Positions 1-43,519 of a stretch of 64,000 bases of DNA are shown one piece after another; position 1 is the stretch's first letter; every line of letters starts with the position of its first letter. The translations under genes and the position numbers were made by a program. The stretch comes from Halichondria panicea. Lineage: Eukaryota. The stretch is from NCBI RefSeq assembly GCF_963675165.1, contig NC_087392.1, forward strand, positions 78,022 through 142,021, given 5' to 3'. Under the pieces are notes generated by a model that worked only from the letters and a program-made list of their open reading frames with translations, searched no databases and had not been told where the DNA came from.

Positions 1-1
1 C

Positions 2-184
2 ATGCTCTGGTTGGACTCTAACTACCCCACAGACAAAGACCCTAGTACACCTGGAGTGGCCAGAGGGAGCTGTCCCATCTCATCTGGACGACCTACTGAG
101 GTAGAGAAGAATCATCCAGATGCCAGTGTGACTTATTCTAATATTAAGTTTGGAGAGCTGAACTCCACCTACAAGCCAAACTGA
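2..184 (+). CDS. Glycoside hydrolase family 7 (cellobiohydrolase/endoglucanase) C-terminal fragment; the gene continues upstream of the window
   Basis: ORF 2..184 ([35 protein letters not shown]...[17 protein letters not shown], stop 182-184) matches the conserved C-terminal end of GH7 catalytic domains (fungal Cel7A: [36 protein letters not shown]...VTFSNIKFGPIGST). No CBM follows it. Confidence 0.65.
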
Positions 185-548
185 CCACATTAGCCTCCTA
201 ACATTAGTGTTACTATTAAAGGCTAGGTTAGGTAACATTAGCTGGTGTGTAGAGTGTGTGTACTATGGCTTCAGTGAGGAGAACATTATACATTCTTTAT
301 ACCGTATAGCGGGTAATTTTCGTTAGTACAAATTTTCTTATGAACTACCATTTCCTATTTTAAATATTCGTACAGCTCACAATAGTGAGGTCAACATAAT
401 TATTGCAGTAATGAATGCTGTATTGTTCTAAGGATGTTCACCCACTCATTTAATTGACATCAATTCAAGATCAGAGATAATTAAACAACATTCTCCATTG
501 CACAAACATCAAACCTCATTACAACAGTCTATCACTATCAAACAGTTA

Positions 549-2096
549 CTAGAGCGCCCTCCTCTTATCCGCAGCCTCGGCTCTCTCATTCCTGCGCTTA
601 TTCTCCAAGAGGAGCTGGTGACGTCGGAAGGTCTTGGCATACGGATTCAGCCTCAATAAGACATTCAGGTTCTTGAGAGGATTCTTCTTCTGAGAGAAAC
701 GTTTCGAGTTGGGCCTGCAGAAATAATATCAAAATAATGATGACAGAATGAAAAACAAATAACTTTTATATAACTGCATACACACTCTTTACACGCCCAC
801 ACACACACAATTTACCCGATGGGCACGCCCACACTTTACCTGATGGGCCTAACTACTTTCTGTATCTCGTCAGAGTTGATAAGACGTGCCAGGTCGGTCT
901 GAATCATCTTTGGCCGGGGGAGACTGTGAGAGGGGGTGGGGTCAATAAGGTCAAACAGAGAGTACACTTACTTGTAATCGTTCTTCATGGTGGACTTCTT
1001 CTTCCACGTCCCGTACAGAGCATCCAGTTTGTCAAAGGCTCCTTTAGACCAGATACAGAATCTCCCCATATGACCACCAGGCGCCAGCAACAGGAGATTC
1101 ATACGATCTACCTTCAGCAGCTCAACACCTGAGGTAGAGAGATAGACACAGTGAGTACACACATAGGCACACAGGCAGTGAGTACACACACACACACGAC
1201 TAAATGGCATACCTGGCAAGTTCCTGAAGGCTTTAGTGATGCCCTGGTCCTCATCGTAGATGATCAGAGGGCCCTTGCGTTGGACATAGCGTCTATTCCT
1301 CATCTTGCCCTTGCCTGGTCGCACTTTCTTAGAGGCTTTGCTCTTGGCTACATCAGGATAAGCATTGAGAGCCTTGAGCACCTTGACTGCATCTCGTGTC
1401 TTAGTAAGCTTCTCAATAGAGTTGTCCACTACAAGGGGGACTTCCCCAATGTTGTCAATGCGATGCCCTCTAGCCATGACTAGTGCAGGGAGAGCTGTGG
1501 CTGCCAGAGCTGAGCACATGGCATAACGACGTTGGTTCTGGTTAATACGTCGATGCCATCTACGCCATGTCTTAGTTGGTGCAAACATACGCCCACCACG
1601 ACACATCTACACTCAGTCAAGGAATCACAACCACGCATGCAGGAAGACACTAAACACACCATTATATTGTTAAGAGGATACATTTCCAAAGGCAGCTTGT
1701 CCTGACCGGTGAGTACCTCCTCCCCTCACACGAGGTATACGAGCCACGGCACGCCCTGTGCCCCAGGACTCTGCACTGGTCTGGTGACCTGCCTTGGAGG
1801 ACACTGCATATGGTTGACGCTTGTTCTTACGCATGTTCGTGTGCACAAACTGCACAACATCGGTACGTATTGGTGCCTTGAATACAGCCGGTAGGGTCGT
1901 CTGAGCTATGTCCTTACCCTCACCATCAAACACACTCACCAAAGGTCGAGCAGCCTGCACACAAACACAGTACACGGAGGCAGTCTCACATTATCATGTA
2001 CATCACACAATTGATATTGAGACTAAAAATTGTTTCTAAATCTCAGAAATAATTATAAGTATTTCAAAAGGTATATATAAGACACACACTCACCAT
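549..2096 (-). CDS. RPL4: 60S ribosomal protein L4 (uL4), complete multi-exon gene
   Basis: Approximate - strand exons in plus coordinates: ATG at 2096-2094 followed directly by a GT donor; 1687-1947 ([15 protein letters not shown]...GQAAFGN); 1212-1621 ([36 protein letters not shown]...[10 protein letters not shown]); 968-1131 ([43 protein letters not shown]...); 840-907 ([26 protein letters not shown]); 551-714 ([33 protein letters not shown]..., stop TAG). Collinear with human RPL4 throughout. A GCGCATGCGC palindrome lies at 2194-2204 upstream. Confidence 0.9.
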
Positions 2097-2342
2097 TTCT
2101 TTACTGCAGAAGATGCCTCCTAAGAACAGATGAAGTAGATACAACCTAACACACTAGCACTATAAAGAGCAACTTACACTAGGTACACGAGGGAGAGAAG
2201 GTTCGCGCATGCGCACAACAAGTATTGTCAGTCACTAATGAATACCCTCGACCCTTTGCCACAACACAGCACAGAGCCAGAGCTAGCTAGCTAGAGATAC
2301 TCTATTAATTTTAACCACTCTGAGAGATAGCTGCTGAGGTGA

Positions 2343-3610
2343 TGGGTATTCTCTCCAACTCTCCTCAAGGCTTCTCCAGTGCCGTGGAGTCACTCAACAC
2401 TCTACCACAGGGACTGCTAGCTGAGCTGGTGAGCAAGCTAGAGTTAGTGGGTGTGTCCTCATGGCCTCTCCTCAACCTTGTAGTGTGGAGATGTGATGGC
2501 CTTCCTGCAGTTTAGAGCTGGATTCATCAGTACAGAGCACTATGAGATTGTAGGTTTCATCATGTATATATTGTAGCACTATCAATACGATAATAGATCT
2601 AGGCGTCCTTTAAAACTCAGCTTTAATTAACGTGATGTTCCTAACATGTTGTGGCCTCTCAAAGTTATATAATTATTAGTATATGCATGCCCCCAGTATC
2701 CTGTCCTTCACTTTATTAACTATTGTGATGTGCTTCTTTAGAGCTTCTCTTCACTGAACCCCCGTCCAAAAGTCAAAGAGATCATCAACGCCCTCACCTT
2801 TGTGTTTAGGTGAGTTCCTCTTATTGACTACACCCCCTAGTAACCCCCCTCCAGGTCAGCAGGTGTTGCTAGGGTCAGTGCAGATGAGCTAGTAGCTCAA
2901 CTCAAGGCATCCTTGGAATGGAGTGATACTGTCCTGGCCGTACTGAGGCATGTGTGGAAGGAGGAGGGGCCAGCACTCATCGCCATGCCAACTCACACAC
3001 TCAGCGTAGGCCAGGTATTGCCCCAAACCTTTATACATATTCACTCTTGTATTCTGTGGCGTGTGATATTCTGTGGCGTGTGATATTCTGTGGTGTGTGA
3101 TATTCTGGTGTGTGTATGATCTCAGACAACCTGCCTGCATAGCTCCCATGCATGACAGACTCCTTCCTTCACTAGTTGCTGTCTATGGAGTGGAAGTTGG
3201 GTGTAGCCATGAGCTCCAGTACATGCCGCTCTCTCAATGCTCCATACCTCACCCTTCAGCTGAGACTAGGGCAGGAGAACACACACACACTCGACATGAC
3301 CCTGCCAGAGTTCCAGGTGAGAGGGTGGCGGGGGGGTAATGTAGAGGGTGGTGGGGGGTAACGTAGAGGGTGGTGGGGGTGGGGTAATTAGACCATCGTT
3401 TGTAGAGGGGGAGGAGGTGATTAGACAACCATTTGTTCTGGTGGGCAAGCTTGTATCGGTTGTGTAGGGCTCTTCTTGTCAGTTTCTTGTTAGTCACAAT
3501 ACACTAGACATTTGCTGTCACGCTAGATATATTCACAGTTGTTGTATTTTATCTGTAGAACTTTGCCTCTCAACTTAAAGACATGGCATCAACGCTGGAA
3601 ACTGCCACTT
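2343..3610 (+). CDS. COMM domain-containing protein (COMMD family), multi-exon; exon borders approximate
   Basis: Putative exons 2343-2480 (MGILSNSPQGFSSAVESLNTLPQGLLAELVSKLE...), 2744-2808, 2858-3022 (SAGVARVSADELVAQLKASLEWSDTVLAVLRHVWKEEG...), 3150-3317 (LSMEWKLGVAMSSSTCRSLNAPYLTLQLRLGQENTHTLDMTLPEFQ, which is COMM-domain-like, compare DFDWRLDV..S....P.L.LQLKL) and 3557-3610 (NFASQLKDMASTLETAT*). The family is assigned by the COMM-domain signature only. Confidence 0.4.
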
Positions 3611-3862
3611 AGTGTGTGTACATTGTGTGTGGTTAGGTTAGATTGTATTCTCTGTCTTATTTTGTGGAGAGAATTGAATTCCTATTTGCTCATGTATGGA
3701 AAAAGAGTGATGTATTGTTTGCAGCTTGTTGCGTGATGTACTAAGTGTTGTGCGCTTGTGTTAGTTGCTGCCTTGTTAGGAAGAGCAGTGTATCAATGCC
3801 ATAGGAACAGTCTGTACAACCCACTCACTGTGTCTATATAGGCCATACAACCCTCACAATAG

Positions 3863-4923
3863 ATGATTGAGTTGTACAGTTTAAGACAAGAGATGAGTTC
3901 CCCACAGTTTAGCTACACAGTCAAGTGTTGTAATCAGAGAGACTCCTCCATCAGTGGAGGGATGCCAGAACAACCATTCCATGCCACCTGTCTCTGGGAG
4001 AGGATTGTGGCTCATCTAGAGAGGACAGTTAAGACTGGTAGACACATTATTGCTCTGCGTTCTCATGAGAACTGCTTCCATGGCTCCAAGGCTGTTGACT
4101 GCCTTGTGCCGTATCTCAACACCATCCTCCCCAAGCCCGTCAAGAGAGCTCAAGTCCTGGTACTCTGTACTAAGCTGTTTGAAACTGGTGTCATCGCGTC
4201 AGTCAAAGAGAAACCAGAGTTTCGAGAGAAGGGGCTCTATCGATTTACCCACAGCCACTTCTGGACCACCCCTCCAACCAGCTCTGATTCTGATGAACTA
4301 GTACCTTCTAAACAGGTAAGTTGTATGTTATTGTCACAGTGTGTTCAGACTCCCTCCCTTCTCAGACTGGCCTCCCCGCTAGCCGCAGCATGGAGTGTAT
4401 ACAGCCTCCATCACCTGAACACACTCTCAAGGGCTATGTCAGTGACTCCACTGTTACCCTCACTCATACACGCAAGAAAAAGACACGGAAGATCTCTCAT
4501 AACAGCTCTGACAATCGAAGGAGACTAACTGATATTACACTATTCACCAAACATAAGCTCCAGTCCATTGCCAAACGCCTACACCCTGATTGCAGTACGG
4601 CTATTGCTCCTGTTGGCAAGCCAGCTAAGAGTGATCCATATCTCAGACCATACAAGTCTACAACTCGACACAAGCAGCAAAGACGATCTCAACAACTGAG
4701 GGATAAGGAGAATCATTGCAGTACTGTACAGGGAAAGGAGAGAAGATGGTCTAAACTGAGGCAGTCTAAGGATTGGCACCACCTGGCTGAGGTACCCTCT
4801 GTCCTCAACAGCAGAGCCATGAACAGATCTCACTCATTCTCCAGTTGTGGGGAGCTGCTAGCGTTGGCTCAAGAAAAACCAGTACGTCACAGTGGCAAGT
4901 GGACTGCCTATGGTTTCATCTGA
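3863..4923 (+). CDS. DEPDC7: DEP domain-containing protein, DEPDC7/DEPDC1-like, two coding exons (3863-4315, 4366-4923)
   Basis: Exon 1 encodes PEQPFHATCLWERIVAHLERTVKTGRHIIALRSHENCFHGSKAVDCLVPYLNTILPKPVKRAQVLVLCTKLFETGVIASVKEKPEFREKGLYRFT. This aligns with the human DEPDC7 DEP region (QKPFGATYVWSSIINTLQ...[22 protein letters not shown]...[20 protein letters not shown]...SLYRFT). The GTAAGT donor at 4316 and the acceptor at 4365 are in frame. A basic/Ser-rich tail follows. Confidence 0.6.
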
Positions 4924-5090
4924 CTCATCTGTGTACATGTTTTATATCATTATTTTTGTACTTTAGTTTGTTTCCAAAAATAATTGTTATGTGACAGTTA
5001 ATTAATGTGGCTGTGGGGAAATCCCTAAGCCATACAGTAGCCATAAGGGAGAACCCCTAGTCCACATGTACAGTATACTGATCTGAAGAG

Positions 5091-8000
5091 ATGCTACTCT
5101 ATAGAAGGCTTGCTGTGTTCATGAGGAGGTATGAATCTAGGTACCACACGACAGTGCAGAGTGTGATTGGAGAGGGGGCAAAGTGCTGGATGAATGAGAG
5201 CATCACCATCTGTGTGAGGAGTGCTCGTGTATTGGACTATCCTATAGCGAGTAATAATCTGTTTACCTTCATTCATTGCCTGCACTGCATTGCATGCGTT
5301 CCGGTAAACCACGGTTAGGTTTTCGTGGAAAAGAACGAACTTTTTACAATACCCACTATATACTAGTTAGTGTGTGCTGTGTGTGTGTGTAGGGTTGGGT
5401 GAAGGCTGCTAGACTAGTGTGTGCTGTGTGTGTGTGTGTAGGGTTGGGTGAAGGCTGCTAGACTAGTGTGTGCTGTGTGTGTGTGTGTAGGGTTGGGTGA
5501 AGGCTGCTAGACTAGTGTGTGCTGTGTGTGTGTGTAGGGTTGGGTGAAGGCTGCTAGACTAGTGTGTGCTGTGTGTGTGTGTAGGGTTGGGTGAAGGCTG
5601 CTACTAGTGTGTGCTGTGTGTGTGTGTGTAGGGTTGGGTGAAGGCTGCTAGACTAGTGTGTGCTGTGTGTGTGTGTAGGGTTGGGTGAAGGCTGCTAGAC
5701 TAGTGTGTGCTGTGTGTGTGTGTGTAGGGTTGGGTGAAGGCTGCTAGACTAGTGTGTGCTGTGTGTGTGTGTAGGGTTGGGTGAAGGCTGCTAGACTAGT
5801 GTGTGCTGTGTGTGTGTGTAGGGTTGGGTGAAGGCTGCTAGACTAGTGTGTGCTGTGTGTGTGTGTAGGGTTGGGTGAAGGCTGCTAGACTAGTGTGTGC
5901 TGTGTGTGTGTGTAGGGTTGGGTGAAGGCTGCTAGACTAGTGTGTGCTGTGTGTGTGTGTAGGGTTGGGTGAAGGCTGCTAGACTAGTGTGTGCTGTGTG
6001 TGTGTGTGTAGGGTTGGGTGAAGGCTGCTAGACTAGTGTGTGCTGTGTGTGTGTGTAGGGTTGGGTGAAGGCTGCTAGACTAGTGTGTGCTGTGTGTGTG
6101 TGTAGGGTTGGGTGAAGGCTGCTAGACTAGTGTGTGCTGTGTGTGTGTGTAGGGTTGGGTGAAGGCTGCTAGGAAGCAGTCAGACAGAGTCTTCGTTGAT
6201 GTCAATGACGGCTCTTGTCTTGGCAGACTCCAGGTTGTGATCTCTCTGGACCAACTGCCACAGTAAGAGCTCTATATGTGTATACAGTGTATGATGAGTG
6301 TGTACTGACTAGGGCCAGGGAGTTGACAGTGGGCTCATCAGTGACAATGGAGGGACTGCTAGTGGAGAGCAGTCACTCTGGACAAGCTGTGGAGTTGTTG
6401 GCTAACACTCTACAGCTAGGTCAATGCAACACTCAAGTATGTGTAGACCTATACCATCATCAGAGTACTAGTGTTGACATGATTCCCCTCGTCAGGAGTT
6501 CCCATTCAAAGCTCGTCAGACACACACTCCGGACTACATTCGACAGTTCCCACATCTTCGTGCCAGAACACAGTCTTTCTCTAGTCTCCTGCGATTGAGG
6601 GACACAGCCACGGCTCTCATCCACACCTTCTTTAGAGACAATGGCTTCATTAATGTACACACACCCATCCTCACATCCAGTGATTGTGAGGGGGCGGGGG
6701 AATTGTTCTCTGTGAAGGTGAGCGCTTAATAACCCCTGACTGTACCCCCTCATTAACCGTACCCCTCATACCCCCTTGACTGTACCCCCTCATTAACCGT
6801 ACCCCTCATACCCCCTTGACAGCCCTGCAGGGAGGAAGGAGATGTGGAAGAAGATGAAGAGGGAGAGTTCTTTGGCTGTAAAGCATACCTCACTGTGTCT
6901 GGCCAACTCCATGCTGAAGCCATAGCCTGGTAAGTAATGGTGTGTACATCAGAGTAGGTCGTTGGGAGCAATAATTATGATTGTGAGTCCTTGATCCACA
7001 TTCTGGCCTATTTCTAGTGATAGGACCCACTGATGATTGTAGAGGTAGTGGTGTTTGACCCCCCCACTGATGATTGTAGAGGTAGTGGTGTTTGACCCCC
7101 CCACTGATGATTGTAGAGGTAGTGGTGTTTGACCCCCCCACTGATGATTGTAGAGGTAGTGGTGTTTGACCCCCGCTGATGATTGTAGAGGTAGTGGTGT
7201 TTGACCCCCGCTGATGATTGTAGAGGTAGTGGTGTTTGACCCCCGCTGATGATTGTAGAGGTAGTGGTGTTTGACCCCCCCACTGATGATTGTAGAGGTA
7301 GTGGTGTTTGACCCCCCCACTGATGATTGTAGAGGTAGTGGTGTTTGACCCCCCCACTGATGATTGTAGAGGTAGTGGTGTTTGACCCCCGCTGATGATT
7401 GTAGAGGTAGTGGTGTTTGACCCCCCCACTGATGATTGTAGAGGTAGTGGTGTTTGACCCCCGCTGATGATTGTAGAGGTAGTGGTGTTTGACCCCCGCT
7501 GATGATTGTAGAGGTAGTGGTGTTTGACCCCCGCTGATGATTGTAGAGGTAGTGGTGTTTGACCCCCCCCACTGATGATTGTAGAGGTAGTGGTGTTTGA
7601 CCCCCGCTGATGATTGTAGAGGTAGTGGTGTTTGACCCCCGCTGATGATTGTAGAGGTAGTGGTGTTTGACCCCCCCACTGATGATTGTAGAGGTAGTGG
7701 TGTTTGACCCCCGCTGATGATTGTAGAGGTAGTGGTGTTTGACCCCCGCTGATGATTGTAGAGGTAGTGGTGTTTGACCCCCGCTGATGATTGTAGAGGT
7801 AGTGGTGTTTGACCCCCCCACTGATGATTGTAGAGGTAGTGGTGTTTGACCCCCCCACTGATGATTGTAGAGGTAGTGGTGTTTGACCCCCCCACTGATG
7901 ATTGTAGAGGTAGTGGTGTTTGACCCCCGCTGATGATTGTAGAGGTAGTGGTGTTTGACCCCCCCACTGATGATTGTAGAGGTAGTGGTTTTTATCTTTG

Positions 8001-9460
8001 AACGGCCATAGCTTTAGTTCAGTTGGTCCAATCACATTAATTTTATGATTTTCTGAAAGCTTAGAGAGAGGCCTTTCAGATGATGATCTATTTTGGCCTG
8101 TTTTCGACAAAATACCGTGGGCTATATATAGCCCATGGTCTTTTCCTGAAAATAAGAAATTATGGCCCGTTTCAAATTGAGATTTGAGCATGCGATCTGA
8201 AAGGAGCTCCTTCTAAGCTTTCAGAAAATCAGTTGAATTTGGACCATTCAAAATAAGTTATGGCTGTTGAAAGGAGTGCCTTAATTAATTACAGGGAATC
8301 TTTTGAACGGCCATAAATTTAGTTCTGATGGTCCAATAAGTTAATTTTATGATTTTCTCAGAGCTTAGAGAGAGGCCTTTCAGATAATGTGTTAAAATCA
8401 AAGGTCTATTTTTGGCCTGTTTTGGACAAAATACCGTGAGCCTCAATAGCCCATGGTTTTTCCCCCGAAAATAGGAAATTATGGCCCGTTTCAAATTTGG
8501 GATTTGAGCATACCATCTGATAGAGCTCCTTCTAAGCTTTCAGAAAAATCATAAAATCGGTACTTTGTACCACAGCGTTAAAAATGATTCTTGCAGAAGC
8601 ATCTTGCATCACTTCACCTTGCAGTGGGATGAAGTCTGTGTACACTTTTGGTCCAACCTTTCGTGCTGAACGTTCTCACAGCTCACGCCATTTGTCAGAG
8701 TTCTATATGATTGAGGCTGAGAAGGTGTTTCTTTCAAGTGAACTGGAGCCTCTGTTAAACCTTGTCGAGGATCTGTACAAATACACAGTGGAGGGATTAC
8801 TGAGAGAGAGGGAGGAGGACATGACGTTCTATCATGAGCAGAGCCAAAGCACAAAGGTAAGTGATATCTATATACCATACTCTGATGCTCATCTGTATCA
8901 TAGGAATGGGTCATGAAAAGTCTGTCAAGGCCATTTCTCAGGTATGAGTGTACTTGTATGAATGTGCTGCTATATTCCACTAAACAGAATGACATACTCT
9001 GAAGCAGTTAATGCGCTGAGAGCGGCTAATGCCAACTTCCAGTTTGAACCCAAGGTAAGAGTCTATCCACCCACTCATGCTGATCCTTCCCTGCAGTGGG
9101 GGAGTGACCTCAAGTCAGAGCACGAACGCTACCTCACTCACCACGTTGGACATTGCCCTCTGTTTGTCACCGACTATCCTGTCACACTCAAACCATTCTA
9201 TGCACGACAGAACAGCGATGGAGAGACAGTGAGTGTGTGCCCTAATAGTGAGTCACCTCCTTATACCCCCCCTGTAGGTATCAGGGATGGACCTCCTCCT
9301 ACCAGGTGTGGGGGAGGCTGTGGGGGGTAGTATTAGGGAGGAGAGGGAGGAGTCACTGCAAGCCGCTCTAACAAGGTCATGAACCCACCACTCACTGTAT
9401 TATCACTTGTTTGCTCTTATTCTACAGGTGTGGAATGTTAGAGTCGTATCAATGGTGAGA

Positions 9461-9514
<54 letters not shown>

Positions 9515-9701
9515 GTGCGTGCGTGTGTGTGACTAGTGTCTGATGCTGTGCAGGTATATGGATCTCCGTCGCTTTGGTACTGTACCACACGGTGGATTCG
9601 GACTGGGCTTTGAGAGATTGTTGCAAGCTGTGTTAGGAGTTAAACACATTAGAGACGTTACCCCATTCCCAAGGTTCCTGGGTTCATGTGACATGTAATC
9701 A
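5091..9701 (+). CDS. NARS2: Asparaginyl-tRNA synthetase, mitochondrial-type (class II aaRS), about 10 exons
   Basis: Exons: 5091-5312 ([33 protein letters not shown], a presequence-like N-terminus, tentative); 6227-6438 (..[41 protein letters not shown]); 6496-6717 ([74 protein letters not shown]); 6821-6929 (..[21 protein letters not shown]); 8598-8868 (motif 2: [27 protein letters not shown]); 8985-9057; 9093-9229 (..[30 protein letters not shown]); 9279-9377 ([23 protein letters not shown]); 9428-9454 (CGMLESYQW); 9555-9701 (motif 3: [41 protein letters not shown]). The C-terminus and the GNCDAKDFPIKYKERH-like junction are much closer to human NARS2 than to cytosolic NARS1. Confidence 0.85.
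5340..6170. repeat. Minisatellite, about 58-bp unit x about 14 (ctagactagtgtgtgctgtgtgtgtgtgtagggttgggtgaaggctg), in NARS2 intron 1
   Basis: Near-perfect head-to-tail copies are visible directly in the sequence. Confidence 0.95.
7014..7985. repeat. Minisatellite, 34/37-bp unit x about 27 (ctgatgattgtagaggtagtggtgtttgaccccc[cca]), in a NARS2 intron
   Basis: Direct tandem copies. The long - strand ORFs at 6890-8191 are frame-open repeat artefacts. Confidence 0.95.
7985..8580 (+). mobile_element. Two tandem copies of a dispersed roughly 300-bp interspersed repeat family (non-autonomous element or satellite-like)
   Basis: Shares long blocks (ttttatgattttctgaaagcttagagagaggcctttcagat ... ggaaattatggcccgtttcaaatttgagatttgagc ... 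gagctccttctaagctttcagaaaatc ... gaatttggaccattcaaaat.aagttatggctgttgaaag) with 27193-27935, 52536-52850 (inverted) and 56690-57710. Confidence 0.8.
9463..9532. repeat. (GT)n microsatellite in the NARS2 penultimate intron
   Basis: Direct sequence. Confidence 0.95.
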
Positions 9702-9811
9702 TTGTTGAATTCTTGTTCAAGTTTTTTTGTCATAATAATAATAGTACATTCGTAATAAGAATTGAGTCAAAAACTGAGTTAAATTAATAAAGACCACTAT
9801 TCATTGTTCAG

Positions 9812-10430
9812 TCTATTGTTTGTTCTTTGCTGCCTCCCCCCACTCTACGAGCTGTGCTGAGAGCTGGAGCATGATTCGACTATAGGCACTGAGCAATTGG
9901 TGGACTTGTCCAGTCAACTGCTCCACTAGGCGCTCTTGTTGAGAGTGGAGGATGGCCACTGATGAGAGCTTCTTCTCATGTTCCTCTAGACCCTGAAACT
10001 CTGTCACATTGAGATAGTCTTTAAGTCTCTGTAACTCTTCTATAGGCTTAGAGAGATCAGTGAGTTGAGCAGTGTACCCAATGAGTAAGTCAGTCTTGGC
10101 AGAATCAGTCAGCTTCAAGTTTGATAGGTAAGTAGGGTCAAGAGCTTTCTCTAGAGCAGCCATCTTGGACCAGAGGCTGGACACAGCTCCCACTTTAGAG
10201 AAGCCTTGTGCCAACTTGTTCTCAAGCATCTGTGTACGAGGATGGTCAAGTATCAGTACACCATGTCCTGCACTTACCTCCAGTGTTGGCTTCAAGGGAG
10301 GCTGATCTGGTCTAATGCCATCTTGACCAATCACTCTTTTCTCTAATGCTTCCAGACGGCGAGTGAGGGCGCTCAGGTAGTCATCAGAGCCCACAGCGCC
10401 GACATCAAACTGTTGACTTGTAGCTGCCAT
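9812..10430 (-). CDS. DCTN3: Dynactin subunit 3 (p22/p24), single coding exon
   Basis: The 205-aa ORF begins MAATSQQFDVGAVGSDDYLSALTRRLEALEKRVIGQDGIRPDQPPLKPTLEV..., parallel to human DCTN3 ([23 protein letters not shown]...). It is coiled-coil throughout and of matching length and organisation. Confidence 0.7.
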
Positions 10431-10552
10431 CTTTATTTGTAAATTTCTATATAATACCCACCATTGCTAACATTTCATGTGGGGTCATGAACCCTACGGT
10501 TGCTCTGATGGTTGCCTAGTAACAGTGATATCAAAGGTGGAGGAGCTCAGAG
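10431..10552. promoter_or_regulatory. Putative bidirectional promoter between DCTN3 (- strand, ATG 10430) and TTC29 (+ strand, ATG 10553)
   Basis: The two start codons face away from each other and are 122 bp apart. This is inferred from geometry only. Confidence 0.35.
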
Positions 10553-13240
<2,688 letters not shown>

Positions 13241-40727: not shown

Positions 40728-43519
40728 ATGTCCCTCTCTCCTAAGAGCACAAGCACTCCATTGAAGACAACCTCTTCTCTGGCTACAGAGAACTTATCTG
40801 CGCCCGGTATCCACAAGTCAGCCAGTGGAATAGCATGGTTGGAAACCAGTGAGATCACGTCACACCAGGAGCCCATAGCTCCACTCAAGATACAGGAGTC
40901 TCAAGATCTACTCGATGAGTTTGCAGCCAATGATTCGATAACGTCACAGCTGATCGGAACTCGTGTGTCGTTCTCTTCCCCATCTCAGAGCAGTTTAGTA
41001 GCTGCTGGTCGTGCCATGGCGGTCCTCACCAGTGGAGGGGATTCCCCCGGGATGAACTCTGCACTCCGAGCGGTCGTACGTGTGGGTATCTACTACAACA
41101 TGAAATCGTATGCAGTGTACGAAGGTTACCAAGGTTTAGTGGAGGGTGGCGAGAAGTTGAAGGAGATCACTTGGAACGATGTGTCAGGCATCCATTGCAT
41201 GGGAGGCACCATTATTGGGACGGCACGTTGTAAGGAGTTTCGGACAAAAGAAGGACGATTGAAAGCCTGTGAGAATTTGGTGAAAAGAGGCATCAATAAT
41301 CTGGTTGTGATTGGAGGCGATGGAAGTTTAACTGGAGCCAATATCTTCAAGGAGGAATGGAAAGGTCATATCAAGAAGCTTCTGGAGGACAAGACCATCA
41401 CGGCTAAGCAAGCAGTTGCGTGCGGTTATCTGAACATTGTTGGTTTGGTTGGGTCCATTGATAACGACATGTGTGGTACGGATATGACGATAGGAGCGGA
41501 CACTTGTCTACACCGGATCATGGAGGCTCTGGACTGTCTCACGAGCACAGCCGCTAGTCACCAGAGGAGCTTTGTGCTGGAGGTGATGGGTCGTCACTGT
41601 GGCTACCTGGCTCAGATGGCAGCCATAGCTGGTGGTGAGTGTTGGTGGTCCGTGTTATGTATGTCAGTATGTAACTGTACTATAGGTCACATGTACCTTG
41701 CACTCTCCTATTGACTGATCTATGTACCACCATTAAGTGTATTCATTGTTGCTATTGTTTGCATAAGTATCCTTGTAAGTACACACGGAAACATAATTGT
41801 GGCTTAAACTGGTTTACTTGGCTAATATAATCTGCCCCTCTCCTCCACACAGGTGCTGATTGGGTGCTTATCCCTGAGAATCCCCCACAGCCAGGCTGGG
41901 AGGAAGTCATGTGTCACAAGATCGACTTCTGTCGTCAAAATGGTCGTCGTCACAGTCTAGTGGTCATGTCCGAGGGAGCAGTGGACTCTAAAAACAAACC
42001 AATCACCTCAGCTGACGTCAAGAAGATTCTGGAGACCAAGCTTGGCCACGACACGAGGATCACTGTCCTAGGGCACGTTCAGAGGGGAGGAAAACCCTCT
42101 GCCTACGATAGAATCATCTCTTGCAGGATGGGAGCAGCTGCGGCCCTCGCACTCTTAGGCACCTCCAGTGAGATACCCTCTATGATGATTGGTGTCCAAG
42201 GCAACCAGATCTTCCAGCTGCCCCTCATGGAATGTGTGAGACGCACACGAGCAATTGACAAGGCTATGAAGGATTGTGTCTTCAAGCAAGCTCTAAATAT
42301 TCGCGGAGATAGTTTCCGACGAAGCAGAAAGATCCTCAAGAGATTGGAGTCATGTGGTAGCTCAGATGATTCCAATTGTGAGTCCCCCTCTTCCCCAACC
42401 TCCCACAAGTTCACATTTGCCATCATGAACGTTGGAGCTCCAGCTGCCGGAATGAACGGATGTACGAGGGCCTTTGTTCGTCTTCTCCTCTTTCAAGGAC
42501 ACACTGTCCTGGGGATCTCTGAGGGATTTGTTGGATTGCTAGGGGACAAAGTTCGCCCGATGTGCTGGAAGGAGGTGGACGGATGGGCATCTCAGGGTGG
42601 ATCCAAATTAGGCACTAATCGAGATATTCCCGACGACAAGACTCTTCCAGAAATTGCTGCCAAGTTTGGAGAGTACAAGATCCAAGGGCTGCTTATCATT
42701 GGTGGTTTTGAGGCGTACAGCAGTTTGATCAAGCTGGAGAAAACTCGCTCAGTGTACACAGCATTTCGTATTCCTCTGTGTGGAGTGGCTGCTACCATTA
42801 GTAACAATGTCCCGGGTACAGAGTTCAGTCTCGGCTGCGACACATCCCTCAACGTCATCGTCTCGGCAATGGACGTCCTCCGACAATCGGCGTACGCCAG
42901 TCGCAAAAGAGTGTTTGTGGTTGAGACCATGGGTGGTTACTGTGGTTTCCTTGCCAACATGGTGGCACTGGCTGGCGGAGCTGACGTTGCGTACATCTTT
43001 GAAGAAAAGTTTACGATTGCTACACTGCAGAACGACATATCTTGTCTAATTGGAAAGTTTGTCGATGGCCTTCAAAATGGAATTTTGATTCGAAACGAGA
43101 ATTGCAGTGAGAATTTCACGACCGACTTTCTGTGCAAGCTACTCGACGAGGAGAGCAAAGGAATGTTCATTACCCGCAGCCTTGTCCTCGGGCATCTACA
43201 ACAAGGGGAAGCCCCTAGTCCGTTTGACCGCATTCTGGGCGTTAAGTATGCCTCCCATGCAGTGGATTTCCTCATCGATGAAGCTAACAAGAACTTTGCC
43301 GGGAACAAAGTGCGAGCCACTAGCAAGGAGTCTGCTTGCATGATTGGACTTCAAGGGGTCAAAGTCCAGAGGGTCCCACTCCAAGAGCTTATTTCAAAAA
43401 CTGATTTCAAATATCGAATTCCAACGGACCAGTGGTGGATGTCTCTACGCCATCTGATTGGTCTGCTTGCTAAGCACAAGGAACATGCTTTCCTGGGTGA
43501 AGAATTTCACAGGAATTGA
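40728..43519 (+). CDS. PFK: ATP-dependent 6-phosphofructokinase, eukaryotic tandem-domain type, 2 coding exons (40728-41634, 41853-43519)
   Basis: [131 protein letters not shown]. After the GT-AG intron the protein continues [25 protein letters not shown].. (regulatory half: [45 protein letters not shown]). It is collinear with human PFKM. It carries a roughly 90-aa Ser/Thr-rich N-terminal extension. Confidence 0.9.

What the first reader, a model, noticed from the sequence alone, without database searches (positions are those of the whole stretch)
2..184. GH7 cellulase (cellobiohydrolase-type) 3-prime end in a metazoan-type gene neighbourhood
The last 60 codons of a + strand gene entering the window match the highly conserved C-terminus of GH7 catalytic domains (MLWLDS.YPT...STPG..RGSC..SSG.P..VE......V.FSNIKFG). 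GH7 is rare in animals. It is known mainly from fungi and protists, and within animals chiefly from some crustaceans. Here it sits 370 bp from RPL4, in a locus with normal intron-containing animal genes. It is therefore either an ancient lineage-specific or horizontally acquired gene integrated in the host genome, or contamination if the assembly is chimeric.
Basis: partly seen in the sequence, partly recalled or inferred. Interest (0 to 1): 0.6.

Follow-up and report, generated by a model that had tools for sequence, protein, structure and literature searches.

The report
Sponge's own GH7 cellulase gene end
The window opens with the last 60 codons of an intact, secreted cellobiohydrolase-type (GH7) cellulase gene of the sponge Halichondria panicea; it is a real host gene and not contamination, but GH7 genes were already known from sponges.

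Summary
Window 2-184 (+) encodes the C-terminal 60 residues and stop codon of a GH7 catalytic domain (Pfam PF00840, E=1.9e-21). The stop lies 364 bp from the stop codon of an intron-containing RPL4 gene on the opposite strand.

The window is Halichondria panicea (Demospongiae). Three other assemblies match it at 99.95% identity or better across the junction. One extends leftwards and shows a complete, intronless 455-aa ORF, identical to RefSeq XP_064404155.1 ("uncharacterized protein"). That ORF has a signal peptide, the catalytic E-x-D-x-x-E motif, cellobiohydrolase-length B3, B4 and A4 loops, and no CBM1.

Two related species keep GH7 next to RPL4. dN/dS is 0.064 and codon usage is host-like. 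Chimera, contamination and pseudogene readings are therefore rejected.

In a bootstrapped NJ tree the protein groups (95%) with the published Amphimedon queenslandica GH7 and 71 unnamed proteins. This clade is separate from crustacean GH7 (87%). Its nearest sisters are diplonemid protists, and the deep nodes are unresolved.

GH7 in Porifera was reported in 2018, so this is a new member of a known kind. The cellulose-digesting role and the vertical-versus-horizontal origin remain inferences. Interest is modest.

The parts
2..184 (+). Last 60 codons plus the TGA stop (182-184) of the Halichondria panicea GH7 cellobiohydrolase-type gene. The whole CDS spans window-equivalent coordinates -1183 to 184, and its first 395 codons lie left of the window. 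The fragment contains W376, the whole A4 loop ([18 protein letters not shown], including the R394 equivalent) and the final beta-strands.
   Evidence: Translation. PF00840 at E=1.9e-21, profile 379-435/435. PDB CBH hits. Full ORF in L002, which matches window 1-5488 at 99.945%. Exact protein is RefSeq XP_064404155.1. Loop assignment from the alignment with verified 1CEL and 1EG1 sequences.
215..220 (+). ATTAAA, a candidate polyadenylation signal 31 nt after the GH7 stop codon. This is an inference only.
   Evidence: Read directly from the sequence. No transcript data were available.
185..548 (.). The 364-bp spacer between the stop codons of the two convergent genes (GH7 on +, RPL4 on -). It must hold both 3' UTRs.
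   Evidence: Sequence. This spacer is poorly conserved in the relative L001, while the flanking exons are conserved.
549..2096 (-). RPL4 (60S ribosomal protein L4) coding region with introns. The stop codon is at 549-551, the last exon is 549-714, the large exons lie around 968-1606 and 1670-1975, and the initiator ATG at 2094-2096 is followed at once by a GT donor.
   Evidence: The ORFs at 968-1606 and 1670-1975 carry PF00573 Ribosomal_L4 in the identical loci L002, L003 and L004. Exons are 72-85% nt identical to L001 and collinear with it. Splice sites and the stop codon were read from the sequence.

Best explanation
Window 2-184 is the 3' end of an endogenous, intact, single-exon nuclear gene of the demosponge Halichondria panicea (RefSeq LOC135349549). 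The gene encodes a secreted, single-domain glycoside hydrolase family 7 enzyme of the cellobiohydrolase type.

Shown by the data: the gene is physically part of the sponge chromosome, between a phosphoglucomutase-like gene and RPL4. The ORF is complete at 455 aa. Its N-terminal 19 residues form a signal peptide that ends exactly where solved mature CBHs begin (QQ...). It keeps the catalytic Glu-x-Asp-x-x-Glu triad, His228, the four tunnel tryptophans (W38, W40, W367, W376) and the product-site arginines (R251, R394). It has the long B3, B4 and A4 loops that roof the tunnel in cellobiohydrolases and are missing in endoglucanases. It has evolved under strong purifying selection.

Inferred from the well-studied family mechanism (T. 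reesei Cel7A): after secretion the enzyme threads a single beta-1,4-glucan chain into its tunnel from the reducing end. It cleaves between subsites -1 and +1 by a retaining double-displacement mechanism, with the first Glu as nucleophile and the last Glu as acid/base. It releases cellobiose processively.

More speculative: in a filter-feeding sponge the substrate is probably cellulose from ingested phytoplankton walls and plant or algal detritus. The lack of a CBM1, and a B2 loop 5 residues shorter than in Amphimedon and fungal CBHs, may make the tunnel somewhat more open, with more endo-initiation.

Evolution: the gene belongs to a sponge-type GH7 clade that also contains the Amphimedon queenslandica GH7. 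It therefore predates the split of these demosponge orders. Whether it was inherited vertically or acquired horizontally before that split is unresolved.
For: Identity and location: the window fragment hits PF00840 at E=1.9e-21. L002 (H. panicea bin, GCA_020423275.1; PMC8994243) matches window 1-5488 at 99.945% and carries the full 455-aa ORF. L003 and L004 match at 99.98% across the junction. The exact protein is XP_064404155.1 [Halichondria panicea] on a 5.83-Mb scaffold.

Synteny: GH7 next to RPL4, followed by COMM, DEP, tRNA-synt_2 and dynactin p22, is collinear in L001, where the GH7 is 81% aa identical. It is also collinear in L014, where the GH7 is 94% aa identical and flanks are about 83% nt identical.

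Enzyme type: solved CBHs score 500-625 bits over residues 20-453, and EGs score 250-285 bits. The alignment with verified 1CEL and 1EG1 sequences shows the catalytic and tunnel residues and CBH-length A4, B3 and B4 loops. This meets the loop-length rules of PMC8329511.

Functionality: pN=0.112 against pS=0.691, giving dN/dS=0.064 against the L001 orthologue.

Host-likeness: GC 0.485 and GC3 0.524. The RSCU correlation with pooled host ORFs is r=0.65, against 0.44-0.73 for the host controls.

Clade: NJ tree of 117 sequences, 447 columns and 200 bootstraps. H. panicea, L001, Amphimedon and 71 unnamed proteins form a clade at 95%. Crustaceans form a separate clade at 87%.
Against: No expression or enzymatic data were available. 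L003 is genomic because it contains the RPL4 introns, so transcription, secretion and activity are all inferred.

The catalytic residues lie outside the window and are known only from near-identical assemblies and the RefSeq model.

The B2 loop, the loop reported to influence CBH behaviour most (PMC8329511), is 5 residues shorter than in T. reesei Cel7A and Amphimedon. The A3 tip tyrosines are replaced (DDHAAY). Processivity could therefore be reduced.

The gene is intronless in an intron-rich genome, which hints at a foreign or retroposed origin.

The tree is a distance tree built on top-hit-biased sampling, and its deep nodes have only 25-51% support.
Confidence: 0.88

Rival explanations
1. 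Contamination or a chimeric join: the first ~200 bp come from a fungus or protist living in the sponge and were mis-joined to sponge DNA.
For: GH7 is typical of fungi and protists. Sponge assemblies are holobiont metagenomes (PMC8994243). The gene is intronless, unlike its neighbours.
Against: The junction is reproduced at 99.95-99.98% identity in an Illumina bin, a Logan read assembly and a 1.97-Mb long-read contig at 158x. The same GH7-RPL4 adjacency is kept in two diverged relatives, with about 83% and 72-85% nt identity. Codon usage and GC3 are host-like. No fungal protein exceeds 64% identity, whereas the sponge Amphimedon is 70% identical.
Confidence: 0.01
2. Pseudogene or truncated relic: the window holds only a dead C-terminal fragment, like the internally deleted second copy seen next to RPL4 in the relative L001.
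For: In L001 the copy directly adjacent to RPL4 (9874-10255) is an internally deleted, frame-broken fragment. The window alone cannot show the upstream part.
Against: L002 and L003, 99.95-99.98% identical to the window, show an uninterrupted 455-aa ORF ending at window 184, with no second copy between it and the PGM-like gene. The RefSeq model is identical. dN/dS is 0.064.
Confidence: 0.02
3. Not a processive cellulose-specific cellobiohydrolase: the enzyme works as a more open, endo-acting or mixed-mode GH7, or acts mainly on other beta-1,4-linked glucans (mixed-linkage glucan, xyloglucan, xylan side activity), or has a non-digestive role.
For: The B2 loop is 5 aa shorter than in T. reesei Cel7A and Amphimedon. 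The A3 tip Tyr-Tyr is replaced and there is no CBM1. B2 deletions are reported to change CBH behaviour most (PMC8329511). Sponges are not known cellulose specialists (my own knowledge).
Against: Over the C176-E212 span the protein is still 10 residues longer than the endoglucanase T. reesei Cel7B. A4, B3 and B4 are at full CBH length. The score gap between CBHs and EGs is about 340 bits. The Heterobasidion and Phanerochaete CBHs have similar A3 and B3 variants and, from my own knowledge, are true CBHs.
Confidence: 0.12
4. Origin A, vertical: GH7 was present in the opisthokont or animal ancestor, was retained in sponges and crustaceans, and was lost in most other animals.
For: Fungi, the sister kingdom, are the main holders of GH7. 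GH7 occurs in two distant animal groups. The gene is fully host-like in composition, old within demosponges, and under purifying selection. Chang & Lai argue for vertical descent of crustacean GH7 (PMC6011409).
Against: Sponge and crustacean GH7 do not form an exclusive clade. The smallest clade joining them also holds oomycetes, diplonemids and an MMETSP protist, with 25% support. Chang & Lai also found the Amphimedon GH7 outside the metazoan group. The gene is intronless, and this origin requires very many independent losses.
Confidence: 0.3
5. Origin B, horizontal: a single ancient transfer between a marine microbial eukaryote (diplonemid-like, fungal or other) and a demosponge ancestor, followed by tandem duplications.
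For: The gene is intronless in every sponge-type locus examined. The nearest non-sponge sisters are the diplonemids Artemidia and Namystynia at 87% bootstrap. The clade is separate from crustaceans. The Amphimedon GH7 was flagged as the exception to metazoan monophyly.
Against: Deep nodes are unresolved. ORF-based searching favours intronless genes. The diplonemid sequences are transcriptome-derived, so the direction of any transfer, or contamination by prey, cannot be judged. No compositional trace of foreign origin remains.
Confidence: 0.45

Closest known systems
Amphimedon queenslandica GH7 (gene model Aqu 22707; Chang & Lai 2018, PMC6011409)
   Same: It is a demosponge nuclear gene of 459 aa with a signal peptide, a single GH7 catalytic domain and no CBM1. 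It is 70% identical to the H. panicea protein. It shares lineage-specific motifs: [46 protein letters not shown] and NDYEKRGG. It falls in the same 95%-supported clade.
   Different: Amphimedon has a full-length B2 loop, whereas Halichondria and its relative have a 5-residue deletion there. Amphimedon has N where Halichondria has Y after the A3 loop. The genomic neighbourhood of the Amphimedon gene was not examined.
Fungal GH7 cellobiohydrolases (Heterobasidion Cel7A 2XSP, Talaromyces Cel7A 1Q9H, Phanerochaete Cel7D 1GPI, T. reesei Cel7A 1CEL)
   Same: They are 54-64% identical over the whole catalytic domain. The catalytic triad, tunnel tryptophans and product-site arginines are the same. The A4 and B4 loops are CBH-length. 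The B3 and A3 variants resemble those of Heterobasidion and Phanerochaete. The mature N-terminus QQ aligns with residue 1 of the solved enzymes.
   Different: The host is an animal. There is no CBM1 or linker. The B2 loop is shorter. The rare C4-C72 disulfide of T. reesei Cel7A is absent. The gene is intronless.
Crustacean GH7 cellobiohydrolases (Limnoria quadripunctata Cel7B 4GWA, Daphnia pulex CBH 4XNN; also Tigriopus, Eurytemora, Hyalella, Artemia)
   Same: These are endogenous animal GH7 enzymes of the CBH type, single-domain without CBM1, from aquatic detritus or particle feeders. The PDB search scores are 558 bits (Daphnia) and 474 bits (Limnoria).
   Different: They are only 52-57% identical. 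They form their own clade at 87% bootstrap, which does not pair with the sponge clade. Daphnia has an extra VPL insertion and ELDIWE in place of EMDIWE.
Diplonemid GH7 (Artemidia motanka EP01065_P047223, Namystynia karyoxenos EP01062_P003738; EukProt transcriptomes)
   Same: They are the nearest non-sponge sequences in the NJ tree, sister to the sponge clade at 87% bootstrap. They are about 63% identical and come from marine heterotrophs.
   Different: They are protist transcriptome ORFs with no genomic context. Some are longer (513-514 aa). The relationship rests on a distance tree only.
GH7 endoglucanases (T. reesei Cel7B 1EG1, Fusarium and Humicola EG I)
   Same: They belong to the same family and share the fold and catalytic motif.
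   Different: The EGs lack the B3 loop, most of B4 and 12 residues of A4. The sponge protein has all of these. Scores are 250-285 bits against 500-625 bits for CBHs, and identity is 46%.

Membership tests
Glycoside hydrolase family 7 (Pfam PF00840 / CAZy GH7) | Significant match to the family profile above the curated threshold | tested here: met
   The 60-aa window fragment scores 76.8 bits against the 27-bit gathering score, E=1.9e-21, profile 379-435/435. The full-length protein hits solved GH7 chains over residues 20-453 at E=4.8e-187.
Glycoside hydrolase family 7 (Pfam PF00840 / CAZy GH7) | Catalytic motif Glu-x-Asp-x-x-Glu (E212/D214/E217 in T. reesei Cel7A numbering) plus His228 | tested here: met
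   [11 protein letters not shown] and THVC align with EMDIWEAN and H228 of the verified 1CEL sequence. The motif lies outside the window, in L002 and the RefSeq protein, which are 99.95-100% identical to the window where they overlap.
Glycoside hydrolase family 7 (Pfam PF00840 / CAZy GH7) | Beta-jelly-roll fold with a long substrate-binding tunnel or cleft | not tested
   No structure prediction was run. The fold is inferred from 54-64% identity to solved structures over the full domain.
Glycoside hydrolase family 7 (Pfam PF00840 / CAZy GH7) | Retaining beta-1,4-glucanase activity | not testable with these tools
   This needs recombinant enzyme assays.
GH7 cellobiohydrolase subtype (as opposed to endoglucanase) | A4 loop longer than 5 residues (rule of PMC8329511) | tested here: met
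   [20 protein letters not shown] is the same length as in T. reesei Cel7A. The EG T. reesei Cel7B lacks 12 residues here (rule). This loop is encoded inside the window, at codons 6-24.
GH7 cellobiohydrolase subtype (as opposed to endoglucanase) | B3 and B4 loops longer than 3 residues | tested here: met
   B3 ([13 protein letters not shown]) is 2 residues shorter than in T. reesei Cel7A and equal to Heterobasidion Cel7A, while it is entirely absent in the EG. B4 is full length where the EG has 8- and 10-residue gaps.
GH7 cellobiohydrolase subtype (as opposed to endoglucanase) | B2 loop longer than 4 residues | tested here: inconclusive
   The exact loop boundaries used in the paper are only in a figure. 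Over the C176-E212 span the sponge protein has 30 residues, against 35 in T. reesei Cel7A and 20 in the EG T. reesei Cel7B. It is therefore probably CBH-like, but it is 5 residues shorter than in Amphimedon and the fungi.
GH7 cellobiohydrolase subtype (as opposed to endoglucanase) | Much higher sequence score to CBHs than to EGs (the paper uses an HMM score difference of at least 120) | tested here: met
   An analogous test, not the identical one: phmmer gives 500-625 bits to solved CBHs and 250-285 bits to solved EGs.
GH7 cellobiohydrolase subtype (as opposed to endoglucanase) | Processive release of cellobiose from cellulose chain ends | not testable with these tools
   This needs biochemistry.
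Sponge-type GH7 clade (Amphimedon queenslandica GH7) | Groups with the published Amphimedon GH7 to the exclusion of fungal, oomycete and crustacean GH7 | tested here: met
   The NJ clade of 74 sequences has 95% bootstrap support and contains no named non-sponge sequence. Identity to Amphimedon is 70%, against at most 64% to any fungus.
Sponge-type GH7 clade (Amphimedon queenslandica GH7) | Encoded in the sponge nuclear genome, not in a symbiont | tested here: met
   The gene is contiguous with RPL4 and other intron-containing animal genes in four assemblies and on Mb-scale contigs.
Crustacean GH7 clade (Limnoria / Daphnia type) | Falls inside the crustacean GH7 clade | tested here: not met
   Crustaceans form a separate clade at 87% bootstrap. 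The smallest clade joining sponges and crustaceans also contains protists and oomycetes, at 25% support.
Bimodular fungal CBH (GH7 + linker + CBM1) | C-terminal CBM1 (PF00734) | tested here: not met
   The stop codon follows the catalytic domain after 5 residues. Only PF00840 is recorded for the cluster.

The most novel reading that the evidence does not exclude
Demosponges carry an old, expanded and often tandemly duplicated family of endogenous, secreted, intronless GH7 cellobiohydrolases. On this reading the family came from a single ancient gene transfer between marine microbial eukaryotes (the nearest sisters here are diplonemids) and a sponge ancestor, and did not come from the lineage that gave crustaceans their GH7. 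It would give sponges symbiont-independent cellulose digestion of phytoplankton and detritus, which matters for the 'sponge loop' in marine carbon cycling. The Halichondria lineage has in addition remodelled the tunnel-entrance B2 loop.
Probability: 0.3. Interest if true: 0.55.

Novelty: new member of a known kind. Interest (0 to 1): 0.3.

Why it matters
Animal-encoded GH7 cellobiohydrolases are rare, and only crustacean ones (Limnoria, Daphnia) have been characterised. Those drew interest as salt-tolerant cellulases and as evidence that animals can digest cellulose without microbes.

This locus shows cleanly that a sponge GH7 is a real, selected host gene, and that it belongs to a broad sponge-type clade. 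It gives a concrete candidate (XP_064404155.1) for biochemical testing, and for asking whether sponges themselves degrade algal or detrital cellulose.

GH7 in Porifera has been on record since 2018, and this gene is already modelled in RefSeq, though unnamed. The finding therefore mainly upgrades an annotation and does not reveal a new kind of system.

Tried and rejected
- Rfam and tRNA scans of the window found nothing.
- The first homology search, with only the 60-aa peptide, returned only short exon-like fragments with no exact match. The same genome was reached instead through exact ORF products of the neighbouring RPL4 and dynactin genes.
- The stored part of the Chang & Lai supplements does not contain the crustacean FASTA. 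I took Daphnia from the PDB alignments and the other crustaceans from a third homology search.
- The Aplysina metaproteomics paper looked like protein-level evidence for a sponge GH7. It was a prefix match to GH74 and is irrelevant.
- The JBC 2024 GH7 diversity-screening paper has no sponge or Daphnia enzyme.
- No paper in the library pairs Halichondria with GH7.
- Accessions GCA_029782575 and GCA_022076545 could not be tied to a species in the library. The ERZ-numbered ENA samples could not be identified either. The taxon of most unnamed clade members therefore remains an inference.
- The GH7-RPL4 adjacency was not found in the more distant sponge-type loci L008, L009 and L010, so that synteny is limited to the Halichondria lineage.
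- The 94%-identical 487-aa variant (P0035) was considered as a possible paralogue. That was rejected because its flanks are collinear at about 83% nt, so it is an orthologue in a sister species.
- I did not run structure prediction, fold search or the representative-library search. With 54-64% identity to solved structures they would not have changed any conclusion.

Full report
OBSERVATION. Window 2-181 reads in one frame as [60 protein letters not shown], followed by a stop codon at 182-184. The peptide matches Pfam PF00840 (Glyco_hydro_7) at E=1.9e-21, 76.8 bits against a cutoff of 27. The match covers profile positions 379-435 of 435, the very end of the catalytic domain. Against the PDB it matches cellobiohydrolases at 2.5e-22 to 1e-11, and endoglucanases only at about 1e-3.

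On the opposite strand, RPL4 ends with its stop codon at 549-551. Its last exon translates to ...[32 protein letters not shown], read, and its ORFs carry PF00573. The two convergent stop codons are 364 bp apart.

ORGANISM AND CONTINUITY. The exact product of the RPL4 ORF (window 968-1606) is encoded on contig JAIOUD010025855.1 of NCBI assembly GCA_020423275.1 (L002), on a Logan read-assembly contig (L003), and near the end of a 1.97-Mb ENA contig (L004). GCA_020423275.1 is the Halichondria panicea genome bin of Strehlow et al. (PMC8994243).

L002 matches window 1-5488 at 99.945% identity. L003 matches window 1-4102 at 99.976%. L004 matches window 1-11969 at 99.975%. The junction between the GH7 end and RPL4 is therefore reproduced in independent data sets made with different technologies.

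The rest of the window carries animal-type genes: a COMM-domain gene, a DEP-domain gene, a tRNA-synt_2 synthetase, dynactin p22, a B-box plus SPRY (TRIM-like) gene, UDPGT, a tandem-domain phosphofructokinase, fn3 and RING. There are no Rfam or tRNA hits.

THE WHOLE GENE. L002 extends 4.7 kb beyond the left edge of the window. It shows one uninterrupted ORF of 455 codons ending at window 184, which corresponds to window-equivalent coordinates -1183 to 184. This exact sequence is RefSeq XP_064404155.1, 'uncharacterized protein LOC135349549 [Halichondria panicea]', on a 5.83-Mb scaffold. The upstream neighbour is a phosphoglucomutase-like gene (PGM_PMM domains).

The protein begins MKTHLALVALAVFCVAVEG|QQPGN. 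Residue 20 aligns with residue 1 of the mature solved fungal enzymes, so the first 19 residues are a signal peptide. The stop codon follows the catalytic domain directly, so there is no linker and no CBM1.

ENZYME TYPE. The full-length protein scores 500-625 bits against solved cellobiohydrolases. The best is Heterobasidion Cel7A (2XSP) at 4.8e-187. Daphnia 4XNN scores 558 bits, Dictyostelium 545-554 and Limnoria 474. Solved endoglucanases score only 250-285 bits.

I verified my recalled T. reesei Cel7A and Cel7B sequences as 100% identical to 1CEL and 1EG1. I then aligned them with the sponge proteins, four fungal CBHs and Daphnia.

- Conserved residues: the nucleophile/helper/acid-base motif EMDIWE, His228, Trp38, Trp40, Trp367, Trp376, Arg251 and Arg394.
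- A4 loop: the same length as in Cel7A, where the EG lacks 12 residues. This loop is encoded within the window itself.
- B4 loop: full length.
- B3 loop: Heterobasidion-like, 2 residues shorter than in Cel7A and absent in the EG.

By the loop-length rules of Gado et al. (EGs have at most 5 residues in A4, at most 3 in B3 and B4, and at most 4 in B2; PMC8329511), the protein is a CBH on three loops.

B2 is the exception worth noting. Halichondria and its relative L001 have a 5-residue deletion (EDW-----DSTNAVGKYG) relative to Amphimedon and the fungal CBHs. Even so, the segment is still 10 residues longer than in the EG. The A3 tip Tyr-Tyr of Cel7A is HAAY, close to the HAAN and HEAN of the Phanerochaete and Heterobasidion enzymes.

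The most likely mechanism is therefore the standard GH7 CBH one: a retaining double displacement and processive release of cellobiose from the reducing end of a chain threaded through a roofed tunnel. This rests on established knowledge of T. reesei Cel7A. The tunnel entrance may be somewhat more open here, which is my inference.

IS IT A LIVE HOST GENE? A related genome (L001, 1.15-Mb ENA contig) has the same gene order: PGM-like, GH7, RPL4, COMM, DEP, tRNA-synt_2, dynactin p22. Exons are 72-87% nt identical and introns have diverged. A third, closer species (L014) is collinear at about 83% nt and again has GH7 next to RPL4.

Between H. panicea and the intact L001 orthologue (81% aa identity), pN=0.112 and pS=0.691, giving dN/dS=0.064. 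This indicates strong purifying selection.

GC (0.485), GC3 (0.524) and relative synonymous codon usage (r=0.65 against pooled host ORFs, with host controls at 0.44-0.73) cannot be told apart from the neighbouring genes.

Contamination, chimerism and pseudogene status are therefore rejected. There is one caveat. L001 also carries, directly next to RPL4, a second GH7 copy that is internally deleted and frame-broken (9874-10255). H. panicea has no such copy, so the window's fragment belongs to the intact gene.

RELATIVES AND ORIGIN. A full-length homology search found the cluster representative at 94% identity. After it came about 70 unnamed clusters at 65-73% identity, many of them on 0.2-4.5-Mb contigs. 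Only after those came the first named proteins, from fungi, an oomycete and protist transcriptomes, at 59-64%.

The Amphimedon queenslandica GH7 recovered from the supplement of Chang & Lai is 70% identical and shares lineage-specific motifs.

Loci around three unnamed relatives (L008, L009, L010) and one NCBI contig (L011) show intact, intronless GH7 ORFs, often in tandem pairs. Collagen and fn3 genes lie nearby, but RPL4 does not. Two further members come from the metagenome of a deep-sea vent demosponge (JAAGOD; PMC8518922).

I built an NJ tree with Kimura distances from 117 sequences, 447 columns and 200 bootstraps, rooted on T. reesei Cel7B.
- H. panicea, L001, Amphimedon and 71 of the 72 unnamed proteins form one clade with 95% support.
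- Named crustaceans form a separate clade with 87% support.
- The immediate sisters of the sponge clade (87%) are two EukProt proteins from the diplonemids Artemidia motanka and Namystynia karyoxenos.
- Deeper nodes have 25-51% support.

This agrees with Chang & Lai, who noted that the Amphimedon GH7 was the exception to metazoan GH7 monophyly.

The tree does not decide between vertical inheritance with massive loss and an ancient horizontal transfer. Intronlessness and the protist sister group lean towards transfer. Full compositional amelioration shows only that the gene is old in the host.

COMPARISON WITH WHAT IS KNOWN. GH7 in Porifera is already in the literature (PMC6011409; PMC8329511 lists Porifera among non-fungal GH7 holders). 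This gene is already modelled in RefSeq, though only as 'uncharacterized protein'. I found no paper pairing Halichondria with GH7, and no biochemical work on any sponge GH7 in the searchable library. The finding is a new member of a known kind.

- the functional annotation of the gene;
- the proof of genomic integration and of purifying selection;
- the size of the sponge-type clade and its tandem duplications;
- the B2-loop deletion in the Halichondria lineage;
- the diplonemid sister relationship, which is tentative.

VERDICT. Confidence that this is the 3' end of an intact endogenous GH7 CBH-type gene is about 0.9. The digestive role is inferred. Interest is 0.3: the result is solid and tidy, but not surprising to specialists.

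Noticed in passing
L001 9874-10255: In the related sponge genome, a second GH7 copy sits between the intact GH7 and RPL4. It is internally deleted and frame-broken: residues ~80-103 are fused to the last ~75 residues. It is 92-96% nt identical to its intact neighbour, so it is a recent partial tandem duplication or a gene-converted relic. H. panicea lacks it.
   Followed up: partly
L008 10001-13618; L010 7660-11386; L011 1174-4585: Pairs of intact, intronless GH7 ORFs (443-461 aa) lie in head-to-tail tandem on other sponge-type contigs. The family has therefore expanded repeatedly by local duplication.
   Followed up: partly
Full-length protein, T. reesei Cel7A positions ~193-198 (encoded left of the window; L002): The Halichondria-lineage GH7s (H. 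panicea and L001) have a 5-residue deletion in tunnel loop B2 relative to Amphimedon and fungal cellobiohydrolases. B2 is the loop reported to affect CBH behaviour most.
   Followed up: partly
Proteins P0108 and P0125 (EukProt EP01065 Artemidia motanka, EP01062 Namystynia karyoxenos): GH7 proteins from diplonemid protists are the nearest non-sponge sisters of the sponge GH7 clade (87% NJ bootstrap). This is a possible hint of gene transfer among marine eukaryotes, or of prey or contaminant sequences in the transcriptomes.
   Followed up: no
window 11571-11969: A perfect (GT)n microsatellite of 199.5 copies with 100% matches lies inside a gene region. It generates long spurious Cys-Val and Thr-His ORFs in several frames.
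   Followed up: no
window 7026-7993: A minisatellite of ~35-37 bp with 27 copies (95% matches) lies between exons of the tRNA-synt_2 gene. It yields spurious repetitive ORFs of 290-433 aa on the minus strand.
   Followed up: no
window 5368-6172: A 47-bp minisatellite with 17 copies (97% matches), rich in TG.
   Followed up: no
L014 (ENA ERZ23495869 scaffold_13191) 688-3410: A third, closely related sponge species (GH7 94% aa identical, flanks ~83% nt identical) has the same GH7-RPL4 tail-to-tail arrangement. Its called GH7 product is 487 aa, against 455 aa in H. panicea.
   Followed up: partly
window 2094-2096 (- strand): The RPL4 initiator ATG appears to be followed at once by a GT splice donor (ATG|GTGAGT), so the first coding exon would contribute only the start codon. 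This was read from the sequence and not verified with transcripts.
   Followed up: no
window 40728-43519 (+): Two large adjacent ORFs (328 and 551 aa) both carry PFK domains. Together they look like a eukaryotic tandem-domain phosphofructokinase with unusually few introns.
   Followed up: no
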